Shown here piece after piece: positions 12,841 to 13,231 of a stretch of DNA of 13,264 bases. Origin of the DNA: a virus (taxonomy: Duplodnaviria > Heunggongvirae > Uroviricota > Caudoviricetes); the IMG/VR virus record IMGVR_UViG_2802429244_000009; one strand, written 5' to 3'. The notes beneath the pieces were generated by a model. It was not told the DNA's origin, made no database searches, and was given only the letters and a program-made list of their open reading frames with translations. The stretch's first letter is position 1. Every line of letters starts with the position of its first letter. The position numbers were made by a program, and so were the translations under genes.

Positions 12841-13077
12841 GATGTGTGATATAAGAAACGACATTTAATAATCGCCTTCAAAATAAATTTGTTTATATAT
12901 TGTCATGTATATTTTAAGTGAAAGTGAATTATTCACATAAAATAAAAACACATAAGTTAATTTACATAACTTGACTCAATGTGTTGTTGCGATTGGAATA
13001 TTAAATCGTATCATCGAAAGCGGTTCTGAGGGGGAACTCTTCTTTGCTCGGTGATATCGCTCCCCTGAAGAACCAAT

Positions 13078-13153
13078 GCCGACTTAGCTCAGTAGGTAGA
13101 GCAACTGACTTGTAATCAGTAGGTCACCAGTTCGATTCCGGTAGTCGGCACCA
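13078..13153 (+). tRNA. tRNA-Thr (anticodon UGU), thrU-like
   Basis: Hand-folded cloverleaf: 7-bp acceptor GCCGACT/AGTCGGC, D-arm GCTC-AGTAGGTA-GAGC, anticodon arm ACTGA-CTTGTAA-TCAGT, T-loop TTCGATT, encoded CCA. One A.C mismatch in the T-stem. Confidence 0.8.
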
Positions 13154-13156
13154 TAT

Positions 13157-13231
13157 GCGGGTATCGTATAATGGCTATTACCTCAGTCTTCCAAGCTGAT
13201 GATGCGGGTTCGATTCCCGCTACCCGCTCCA
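13157..13231 (+). tRNA. tRNA-Gly (anticodon UCC), glyT-like
   Basis: Hand-folded cloverleaf: acceptor GCGGGTA/TACCCGC, anticodon loop CTTCCAA, T-arm GCGGG-TTCGATT-CCCGC, encoded CCA. Near-identical to recalled E. coli glyT apart from a compensated acceptor-stem pair and one anticodon-stem C-to-T change. Confidence 0.8.

What the first reader, a model, noticed from the sequence alone, without database searches (positions are those of the whole stretch)
13026..13231. Two tRNAs downstream of Q that look like the host thrU and glyT genes joined without tyrU
Seen in sequence: tRNA-Thr(UGU) and tRNA-Gly(UCC) are separated by only 3 nt and lie about 350 nt downstream of Q, after pR'/tR'. From memory, the two match E. 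coli thrU and glyT closely, but the host tufB-operon order is thrU-tyrU-glyT-thrT, so tyrU is missing here. The Gly tRNA has a C-to-T change at acceptor position 6 with the matching G-to-A change on the 3' arm (base pair preserved), which suggests a tRNA kept under selection rather than a decaying fragment. An imperfect inverted repeat (GAGGGGGAA ... TCCCCTGAAG, 13026-13070) lies just upstream of the Thr tRNA. Inference: phage-borne tRNAs captured from the host tufB operon and expressed with the late genes.
Basis: partly seen in the sequence, partly recalled or inferred. Interest (0 to 1): 0.45.

Follow-up and report, generated by a model that had tools for sequence, protein, structure and literature searches.

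The report
Prophage threonine and glycine tRNA cassette
Two intact tRNA genes copied from the host's thrU-tyrU-glyT-thrT (tufB) operon sit just after the late-gene switch of a lambda-like prophage; this cassette is common and already annotated in E. coli prophages, and it appears to have its own promoter and a conserved folded leader.

Summary
ARAGORN and Rfam call tRNA-Thr(UGU) at 13078-13153 and tRNA-Gly(UCC) at 13157-13231, 3 nt apart and 348 nt after a lambda-type Q gene. Thr is 76/76 identical to E. coli thrU.

The DNA is lambdoid prophage, not the chromosomal tufB locus. Host origin is well supported: same gene order, the spacer TAT equals the T after thrU plus the AT before glyT, and a relative (L166) keeps Thr, the chromosomal spacer and the first 35 nt of tyrU.

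The cassette is not rare. I recovered about 150 copies, and it is annotated in several deposited phages, including Stx2f phage phi467.

"Expressed with the late genes" is only partly right. A promoter (TTGnnn-16-TAnnAT) and a covarying leader hairpin with an invariant tandem G·A loop are conserved upstream across divergent flanks, so the cassette looks like a self-contained unit.

ACA and GGA are 2-3 times enriched in prophage genes, which fits tRNA supply. A tRNA-free comparator for these species (mEp460_ev081) is equally enriched.

A counter-defence role against the P2 OLD tRNase is unlikely here, because the Thr is identical to the host's. Verdict: ordinary and already known; the leader motif is the only fresh detail.

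The parts
11908..12729 (+). Q antiterminator gene (273 aa). It is lambda-Q-like with an inserted zinc-finger segment.
   Evidence: PF03589 at 2.3e-52. PDB 7UBM and 4MO1 (lambda Q) match residues 1-113 and 183-273.
12735..12777 (+). pR'-like late promoter (TTGATT-16-TAAATT, with TGn before the -10) plus the AACGATGGG element at the predicted start.
   Evidence: Read from the sequence and compared with the annotated lambda-like pR' of HK446. This assignment is an inference: the match is 8 of 12, below the scan tool's threshold.
12810..12839 (+). tR'-like intrinsic terminator, marking the end of the Q-pR'-tR' module.
   Evidence: 7-bp stem with 5 G-C pairs followed by TTGTTGTTTT. Homology to phages carrying the same Q stops at 12831-12836.
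12840..12986 (+). AT-rich upstream part of the tRNA cassette, with conserved ATTTACA and CTTGAC blocks.
   Evidence: Alignment of 42 distinct upstream sequences. Homology to phage 683R6 begins at about 12812. Function untested.
12987..13014 (+). Predicted promoter of the tRNA cassette: -35 TTGCGA, 16-nt spacer, -10 TATCAT; predicted start at about 13020-13022.
   Evidence: 9 of 12 matches; not significant by itself. Conserved as TTGnnn-16-TAnnAT, 6-8 nt before the hairpin, in 43 of 50 distinct upstream sequences. Precedent for such a promoter in PMC7547250.
13022..13074 (+). Structured 5' leader hairpin: 6-bp outer stem, invariant tandem G·A/A·G internal loop, inner stem, variable apex. It ends 3 nt before tRNA-Thr.
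   Evidence: In 30 distinct hairpins, outer pairs are kept in 28-30 of 30, and pair 6 covaries (U-A 12, C-G 12, U·G 4). 94.3% of cells are paired and the covariation score is reached by 1 of 500 shuffles. The covariance model hits only directly upstream of Thr in 719 kb, plus one tRNA-less unit. No Rfam family matches.
13078..13153 (+). tRNA-Thr(UGU), 76 nt with encoded CCA; identical to E. coli thrU.
13154..13156 (+). Spacer TAT, which equals the T after thrU plus the AT before glyT in the chromosome.
   Evidence: TAT is the spacer in 131 of 137 copies.
13157..13231 (+). tRNA-Gly(UCC), 75 nt with encoded CCA. It is glyT with U6-A67 (a common allele) and U31·G39 (private to this copy).
13232..13264 (+). 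Start of the trailer. In relatives with the same flank, a strong terminator follows about 255 nt after tRNA-Gly, beyond the end of the window.
   Evidence: The flank is identical to L002, L053 and L064. Terminator at L002 8465-8484.

Best explanation
This is a self-contained tRNA cassette, a 'moron' in phage terminology, carried by a lambdoid prophage immediately after its Q-pR'-tR' late-control module.

Its two genes descend from the host thrU-tyrU-glyT-thrT (tufB) operon with tyrU deleted. They are kept functional by selection, probably helped by recombination with the host copies.

The cassette brings its own sigma-70 promoter. The transcript starts at the base of a conserved leader hairpin, and RNase P and 3' processing then release tRNA-Thr(UGU) and tRNA-Gly(UCC). 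Because it lies inside the late operon, Q-antiterminated transcription from pR' should also read through it during lytic growth.

The most likely benefit is extra supply of two single-gene host tRNA species that decode ACA/ACG and GGA/GGG. These codons are 2-3 times more frequent in prophage genes than in host core genes.

Shown here: the genes, their identity to the host genes, their conservation, the promoter and hairpin conservation, and the codon enrichment. Inferred: promoter activity, processing, and the fitness benefit.
For: tRNA calls. Identity to thrU and glyT. Prophage context.

Mosaic boundaries: the Q module ends at about 12831-12836 and the cassette begins at about 12812. The same cassette sits behind other Q types or behind a methylase gene.

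About 150 copies with spacer TAT in 131 of 137. Pair-preserving variation.

Promoter conserved in 43 of 50 distinct upstream sequences, with fixed spacing. Hairpin covariation. Terminator after the trailer in a relative.

ACA is 15.5 vs 5.0 per 1000 codons (p = 1.4e-8) and GGA is 13.6 vs 5.6 (p = 1.2e-5). They rank 4th and 8th by enrichment ratio, behind ATA, AGG and AGA, which other arrays at this site serve with Ile and Arg tRNAs.

The tufB-operon fossil in L166.
Against: No expression data exist for this cassette. On its own the promoter match is only 9 of 12 and not above the shuffle expectation.

ACA and GGA are just as enriched in mEp460_ev081, which has the same Q module but carries Ile/Arg tRNAs instead. 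Codon usage therefore does not distinguish carriers from non-carriers.

The role of the leader hairpin is unknown. One relative keeps the promoter, hairpin and trailer without any tRNA (L019), so the transcription unit may do something besides making tRNAs.

The private C31U change may slightly weaken the Gly tRNA.
Confidence: 0.62

Rival explanations
1. Counter-defence. The cassette replaces host tRNAs destroyed by tRNA-cleaving anti-phage nucleases, in particular P2 OLD, which classically excludes lambda.
For: [quoted passage not shown] The two isoacceptors in the cassette are two of those five targets. HK446 carries Asn and Thr(UGU) tRNAs at the equivalent position, between tR' and the holin gene. 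Some related copies carry changes at Thr 42-43, opposite the reported cleavage sites.
Against: In the same preprint, expressing E. coli Thr(UGU) 'had no effect', and the window's Thr is 76/76 identical to it. The protective HK446 and T4 tRNAs are far diverged from thrU (T4-like about 84% identical). Most copies of both genes have the host anticodon arm. The window's single anticodon-stem change (Gly C31U) is a singleton among about 150 copies. The Thr-Gly pairing is explained more simply by their adjacency in the tufB operon.
Confidence: 0.1
2. Late-only expression. The tRNAs have no promoter of their own and are made only by Q-antiterminated read-through from pR'.
For: The cassette lies downstream of pR'/tR' and upstream of the lysis genes in relatives. 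In HK446 the tRNAs directly abut tR', leaving no room for a promoter.
Against: The -35 and -10 hexamers are conserved with constant spacing and a constant distance to the leader, while the surrounding sequence diverges. The cassette also carries about 265 nt of its own upstream DNA. A tRNA promoter has been mapped in an Stx2a phage.
Confidence: 0.15
3. Functionless passenger. The pair is a relic of specialised capture that stays host-like only through gene conversion with thrU and glyT.
For: Host-identical alleles dominate. All four combinations of the two common Thr and Gly alleles occur, which indicates recombination or conversion within 154 nt. L166 shows exchange with the chromosomal locus. 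Some copies do carry broken pairs.
Against: Non-host alleles such as Gly U6-A67, Gly A-U in the T stem, Gly 5:68 U-A and Thr U6-A67 are compensatory, which conversion from the host cannot produce. The non-tRNA promoter and leader are conserved too. The cassette is widespread, with an estimated 1,150 extra places beyond the chromosomal locus in 5,421 E. coli genomes (inferred).
Confidence: 0.1
4. Chromosomal tufB-operon region rather than phage DNA.
For: Only the sequence identity of the two tRNAs to the host genes.
Against: There is no tyrU, thrT, tufB or coaA, and no flank homology beyond the tRNA borders. The surroundings are prophage genes.
Confidence: 0.01

Closest known systems
The same Thr(UGU)-TAT-Gly(UCC) cassette in deposited E. 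coli phages and prophages: vB_EcoS-683R6, phi467 (Stx2f), SerU-LTIIb, vB_EcoM-606R7, vB_EcoS-689R5, PhiR47_1, JLK-2012, and E. coli strains A10, E9 and IHE3034
   Same: Same two genes, same 3-nt spacer, same position after Q and before the lysis genes, and already annotated as tRNA-Thr and tRNA-Gly. 683R6 shares 95.5% identity over 12812-13231, including the promoter and leader. The Thr and Gly tRNAs of phi467 are mentioned in PMC7366253.
   Different: This copy has a private C31U change in Gly. It follows a lambda-like 273-aa Q directly, whereas other copies follow a DUF1133-type Q or a methylase gene, or sit inside longer Ile-Lys/Arg-Thr-Gly arrays.
The ileZ-argN-argO type tRNA clusters of Stx-converting lambdoid phages (annotated Met-Arg-Arg in PMC7366253)
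   Same: Located in the Q-to-stx/lysis interval after pR'/tR'. They serve codons that are rare in the host and enriched in phage genes. [quoted passage not shown]
   Different: Different isoacceptors. The Thr-Gly cassette has a roughly 53-nt structured leader between promoter and first tRNA, whereas in IHE3034 the promoter-like site lies 9 nt before tRNA-Ile. Promoter activity has not been measured for the Thr-Gly cassette.
The E. coli thrU-tyrU-glyT-thrT-tufB operon
   Same: Thr is 76/76 and Gly 72/75 identical to the host genes, in the same order, and the spacer nucleotides are consistent with a simple deletion. L166 retains the thrU-tyrU junction.
   Different: tyrU, thrT and tufB are absent, as are the host promoter and spacers. 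The promoter and leader here are different and phage-specific.
OLD- or PARIS-resistant phage tRNAs, such as HK446 and T4 Thr(UGU)
   Same: Same isoacceptor (Thr UGU). In HK446 the tRNAs occupy the same genomic slot, between tR' and the holin gene.
   Different: Those tRNAs are strongly diverged from thrU and resist cleavage, while host-sequence Thr(UGU) did not rescue phages. The window's Thr has the host sequence.

Membership tests
Bacterial elongator tRNA (Rfam RF00005) | Cloverleaf scoring above the family's gathering threshold, with an anticodon in a 7-nt loop | tested here: met
   73.8 and 63.3 bits against a threshold of 29. ARAGORN reports anticodons UGU and UCC at position 34.
Bacterial elongator tRNA (Rfam RF00005) | Identity elements for ThrRS (G1-C72, C2-G71, G35, U36) and GlyRS (G1-C72, C2-G71, G3-C70, C35, C36, U73); the element lists are recalled from established tRNA-identity literature | tested here: met
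   Thr is identical to thrU. The three Gly changes, at 6:67 and 31, lie outside those positions.
Bacterial elongator tRNA (Rfam RF00005) | Transcribed, processed and aminoacylated in vivo | not testable with these tools
   Requires allele-specific tRNA-seq or a Northern blot.
Lambdoid late-region tRNA cluster | Lies between Q/pR'/tR' and the lysis (or toxin) genes of a lambdoid prophage | tested here: met
   Upstream side seen in the window. The downstream side is beyond the window, but lysis genes follow in relatives A10, E9, IHE3034 and 683R6.
Lambdoid late-region tRNA cluster | Decodes codons enriched in phage genes relative to host genes | tested here: met
   ACA is enriched 3.1-fold and GGA 2.4-fold. 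Non-carriers are equally enriched.
Phage 'moron' (promoter + gene + terminator inserted between phage genes) | Own promoter upstream | tested here: inconclusive
   Strong comparative conservation, 43 of 50 distinct upstream sequences, but no activity data. The single-sequence match is 9 of 12.
Phage 'moron' (promoter + gene + terminator inserted between phage genes) | Own terminator downstream | tested here: inconclusive
   The window ends 33 nt after tRNA-Gly. A relative with the same flank has a terminator about 255 nt downstream.
Phage 'moron' (promoter + gene + terminator inserted between phage genes) | Moves as a unit between different phage backgrounds | tested here: met
   The same cassette is found behind different Q types and behind a methylase gene. 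Phages with the same Q module carry Ile/Arg tRNAs instead.
Host tufB-operon derivative | Sequence identity and gene order matching thrU...glyT | tested here: met
   76/76 and 72/75 identity, with Thr before Gly.
Host tufB-operon derivative | Residual flank or spacer homology to the operon | tested here: inconclusive
   In the window only T + AT of the spacer and the AT upstream of Thr match; the chance of the spacer match is about 6% by my estimate. In relative L166 the full 8-nt spacer and 35 nt of tyrU are present.
tRNase-resistant counter-defence tRNA | Isoacceptor is a target of a known defence tRNase | tested here: met
   Thr(UGU) and Gly(UCC) are listed among the OLD targets in the preprint.
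tRNase-resistant counter-defence tRNA | Sequence diverged from the host tRNA so that cleavage is avoided | tested here: not met
   Thr is identical to thrU, and host Thr(UGU) gave no rescue. Gly has only one change in the anticodon stem, and that change is private to this copy.

The most novel reading that the evidence does not exclude
The promoter, leader hairpin, trailer and terminator form a conserved small transcription unit of lambdoid prophages that does more than make tRNAs.

The roughly 53-nt leader, with its invariant tandem G·A loop, would be released by RNase P. It could be a stable regulatory or protein-binding RNA, or it could set how the precursor is processed.

Alternatively, or in addition, the Thr(UGU)+Gly(UCC) pair may buffer lysogens or the induced phage against OLD-family tRNases, which target exactly these species.
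Probability: 0.15. Interest if true: 0.55.

Novelty: already known. Interest (0 to 1): 0.27.

Why it matters
As a finding it mainly confirms textbook phage biology. Lambdoid prophages carry tRNA genes in the Q-to-lysis interval, and this particular Thr-Gly cassette is widespread and already annotated.

Three things add modest value:
- There is now clear sequence evidence that the cassette came from, or exchanged with, the host tufB operon: the fossil tyrU half in a relative.
- Comparative evidence indicates the cassette is an autonomous unit with its own promoter, so lysogens probably express it too.
- The leader hairpin motif is conserved, covarying and not in Rfam.

The overlap with the newly reported P2 OLD targets is worth a cheap experiment, but the host-identical Thr sequence argues against a resistance role here.

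Tried and rejected
- Chromosomal tufB locus: rejected, because there is no tyrU, thrT or tufB and no flank homology, and the context is prophage.
- Inverted repeat as a terminator: rejected, because no T-run follows it. It is a conserved leader hairpin instead.
- Known RNA family for the leader or intergenic region: a permissive Rfam search found nothing credible.
- A tyrU relic downstream in the closest relative A10: ARAGORN calls a 'tRNA-Tyr(AUA)' at L005 9305-9386, but it does not align to tyrU. It looks like a degenerate Lys/Arg-type prophage tRNA.
- Photobacterium Thr-Gly adjacency (L014): this is a different Ser-Thr-Gly-Asn array with an 8-nt spacer and does not inform the origin.
- Second promoter from the conserved TTGAC block: rejected, because no conserved -10 lies at the right spacing across families.
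- Anti-OLD resistance: considered seriously and downgraded.
- Literature searches for 'prophage-encoded tRNA' and for Thr/Gly prophage tRNAs returned little beyond annotation-level mentions.
- The exact source organism was not identified. The best E. coli matches are mosaic, covering 52-59% of the window at 89-95% identity.

Full report
**1. Observation**

ARAGORN finds exactly two tRNA genes in the 13,264-nt window: tRNA-Thr(UGU) at 13078-13153 and tRNA-Gly(UCC) at 13157-13231. Rfam's tRNA model scores them 73.8 and 63.3 bits against a gathering score of 29. Both encode their CCA ends, and they are separated by TAT.

The upstream ORF at 11908-12729 is an antiterminator Q: PF03589 at 2.3e-52, with matches to the lambda Q structures 7UBM and 4MO1. 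Its stop codon lies 348 nt before tRNA-Thr.

I compared both genes with the chromosomal thrU-tyrU-glyT-thrT-tufB locus of E. coli MC1061.
- The window's Thr is 76/76 identical to thrU.
- Gly is 72/75 identical to glyT.
All three changes keep pairing.

**2. Context**

The folds are accepted by two independent predictors, and the DNA is a lambdoid prophage. Its genes include:
- a CI-like S24 repressor, Cro and YdaT;
- a replication organiser and DUF977;
- a KAP NTPase;
- hok/sok and HicAB toxin-antitoxin pairs;
- DUF968, RusA and Q.

The window is a mosaic, covering 52-59% of the best E. coli prophage matches at about 89-95% identity.

Directly after Q lies a lambda-like pR': TTGATT-16-TAAATT at 12735-12762, followed by AACGATGGG. 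The -10 hexamer and the downstream element are the same as in the annotated pR' of HK446. A tR'-like terminator follows at 12810-12839.

Phages with the same Q (mEp460_ev081, Evi) are homologous up to 12831-12836 and then diverge. Phage vB_EcoS-683R6 has a different Q but is 95.5% identical from 12812 to 13231. The tRNAs therefore belong to a separate mosaic module that starts just after tR'.

**3. How common it is**

A junction pattern (the 3' end of Thr, 0-12 nt, then the 5' end of Gly) hit reference genomes of:
- E. coli, Shigella flexneri and Escherichia ruysiae;
- Citrobacter braakii and Enterobacter hormaechei;
- two hits I set aside: a Photobacterium Ser-Thr-Gly-Asn array and a 423-nt, low-coverage Corallococcus contig.

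A second pattern, anchored on the two anticodon arms, gave a similar set.

Together these yielded about 150 copies and 54 distinct 154-nt sequences.
- The spacer is TAT in 131 of 137 copies.
- 213 of 5,426 complete E. coli genomes hold at least 80% of 13020-13264.
- The excess of 6,577 places over 5,421 genomes implies roughly 1,150 extra copies beyond the chromosomal locus (the excess figure is my inference).

The pair is annotated in several deposited phages, and a paper notes the Thr and Gly tRNAs of Stx2f phage phi467 (PMC7366253). In many prophages the pair is the 3' end of a longer array, such as Ile-Lys-Thr-Gly in IHE3034.

**4. Selection**

Host-identical alleles are the most common. 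The U6-A67 Gly allele occurs in 27 of 54 distinct sequences, so it is a common allele rather than a feature of this copy. C31U is unique to the window.

Several other changes on both sides of a pair occur:
- Thr 6:67 U-A;
- Gly 5:68 U-A (listed as 5:67 by sequence index);
- Gly T-stem A-U.

Of 33 distinct variant pair states, 15 keep pairing. Only 17% would be expected to do so for random single substitutions. 129 of 150 copies have no newly broken pair.

All four combinations of the two common Thr and Gly alleles exist, which indicates recombination or gene conversion within the cassette.

One caveat applies. The copies were ascertained with exact patterns, so variation inside the pattern positions is under-sampled.

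**5. Origin**

Four lines of evidence support descent from the tufB operon.
- Sequence identity to thrU and glyT.
- Gene order, with Thr before Gly.
- The spacer: TAT equals the first nucleotide after thrU (T) plus the last two before glyT (AT). I estimate the chance of this at about 6%.
- A fossil in a relative. In viral contig L166 (and L165), a prophage array of Ile, Lys and Thr lies behind a DUF1133-type Q and a methylase gene and ahead of a NanS-like esterase. Thr is followed there by the exact chromosomal spacer TCAAGTCC and the first 35 nt of tyrU, after which unrelated DNA begins.

Either the original capture contained tyrU and was later trimmed, or prophage Thr genes exchange sequence with the chromosomal locus. 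Both readings link the cassette to the tufB operon.

**6. Expression anatomy**

Where Thr is the first tRNA, the upstream region is conserved in architecture even though its sequence has diverged.
- A TTGnnn hexamer, exactly 16 nt (rarely 17), and a TAnnAT hexamer lie 6-8 nt before the first base of the hairpin. This holds in 43 of 50 distinct upstream sequences.
- In the window these elements are TTGCGA (12987-12992) and TATCAT (13009-13014). The predicted start is about 13020-13022, at the base of the hairpin.

The hairpin has a 6-bp outer stem, an invariant tandem G·A/A·G internal loop, a 3-6-bp inner stem and a variable apex. It is 46-66 nt long in total, and interior identity has a median of 0.48.
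- Independent folds of 18 variants mostly recover the same architecture.
- Pair 6 covaries: U-A 12, C-G 12, with U·G intermediates 4.
- On alignment A1, 94.3% of cells are paired, four pairs change on both sides, and the covariation score is reached by 1 of 500 shuffles. Slid registers drop to 22-73% paired.
- A covariance model built from the alignment finds the hairpin only immediately upstream of Thr in 719 kb of prophage DNA. The one exception is an 'empty' unit in L019, where promoter, hairpin, trailer and terminator are present without tRNAs.
- No Rfam family matches the leader.

In a relative with the same 3' flank as the window, a strong terminator follows about 255 nt after tRNA-Gly.

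This is the promoter-gene-terminator layout of a phage moron. [quoted passage not shown]

**7. Function**

I compared codon usage in prophage genes with 31 E. coli chromosomal genes (11,744 codons).

| Gene set | ACA per 1000 | GGA per 1000 |
|---|---|---|
| 31 E. coli chromosomal genes | 5.0 | 5.6 |
| Window ORFs | 15.5 (p = 1.4e-8) | 13.6 (p = 1.2e-5) |
| phi467 late genes | 11.1 | 13.7 |
| mEp460_ev081 late genes | 13.1 | 12.9 |

By enrichment ratio, ACA and GGA rank 4th and 8th in the window, behind ATA, AGG and AGA. Those three are the codons served by the Ile and Arg tRNAs found in other arrays at this site. This fits the classical codon-supply explanation.

The evidence is not discriminating, however. 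mEp460_ev081 carries Ile/Arg tRNAs instead of Thr/Gly behind the same Q module, and it uses ACA and GGA just as often.

**8. Counter-defence rival**

A July 2026 preprint reports that P2 OLD is a tRNase that depletes Thr(UGU), Gly(UCC), fMet, Val(UAC) and Pro(UGG). It also reports that viral Thr(UGU) tRNAs (T4, Bas32, Bas33, HK446) rescue sensitive phages, whereas expressing E. coli Thr(UGU) had no effect.

HK446 carries Asn and Thr tRNAs in the same slot, directly after tR', but its Thr is strongly diverged from thrU.

The window's Thr has the host sequence, and its Gly has only a private wobble change. The defining feature of a resistant tRNA is therefore not met. I keep this reading at about 10%.

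A few related copies carry changes at Thr 42-43 that open pairs 27:43 and 28:42, next to the reported cleavage sites. That is worth testing in those copies, not in this one.

**9. Verdict**

The feature is an already known and widely annotated prophage tRNA cassette. The conserved promoter and the leader motif with its tandem G·A loop are, as far as Rfam and the literature I could search show, undescribed, but they are of modest interest.

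Noticed in passing
window 8412-8736: A hok/sok type I toxin-antitoxin locus: sok RNA (RF01794, 109.5 bits) at 8412-8586, overlapping a Hok/Gef ORF at 8524-8736.
   Followed up: partly
window 8965-9682: A HicA toxin (8965-9213) and HicB antitoxin (9191-9682) pair in the nin region.
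   Followed up: no
window 5707-7941: A 744-aa KAP-family P-loop NTPase between the replication and nin genes, with very AT-rich codon usage (AGA 14.8 and ATA 16.2 per 1000). It is possibly a defence-type accessory gene.
   Followed up: no
window 11908-12729: Q is lambda-Q-like at both ends (residues 1-113 and 183-273 match 7UBM and 4MO1). It carries an insert of about 70 aa, and DnaJ-type CXXCXGXG zinc-finger repeats (PF00684, 31.7 bits, just under the cut-off) match residues 171-218, spanning the end of that insert.
   Followed up: partly
L003 1122-1197; L124 and one other locus: Thr-body tRNAs with switched anticodons in the same cassette. One has UCU (annotated tRNA-Arg in phage SerU-LTIIb, with A31G and D-arm changes) and two copies have UUU. 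The Lys(UUU) and Arg(UCU) tRNAs that precede Thr in longer arrays also look like anticodon-switched versions of one body.
   Followed up: partly
L019 2350-2860: An 'empty' unit next to a full cassette: the promoter-like region, the leader hairpin (32.7 bits), the trailer and a terminator are present with no tRNA between them. This suggests the transcription unit can exist without the tRNAs.
   Followed up: partly
L166 3164-3282 (also L165): A prophage Ile-Lys-Thr array in which Thr is followed by the exact chromosomal thrU-tyrU spacer and the first 35 nt of tyrU, then unrelated DNA. This is a fossil of capture from, or exchange with, the tufB operon.
   Followed up: yes
Related copies, e.g. 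L127, L022, L027, L044, L042 (Thr positions 42-43): Recurrent CC or UC at Thr positions 42-43 breaks pairs 27:43 and 28:42. These lie opposite the positions after which P2 OLD is reported to cut (nt 27-29). They could be decay or escape variants.
   Followed up: no
L167 39283-39535 (phage mEp460_ev081): Two tRNA genes, Met/Ile-type CAU and Arg UCU, sit right after the same Q-pR'-tR' module and are not annotated in the deposited record. The same slot therefore holds different tRNA cassettes in different phages.
   Followed up: partly
L002 8210-8490 and equivalent trailers in L005 and L019: A trailer of about 255 nt between tRNA-Gly and a strong terminator contains blocks conserved between families, such as GGAATGGTGCATTAT and GGCAGGGGC...TGATGCA. 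The coding or RNA function is unknown, and it lies beyond the end of the window.
   Followed up: no
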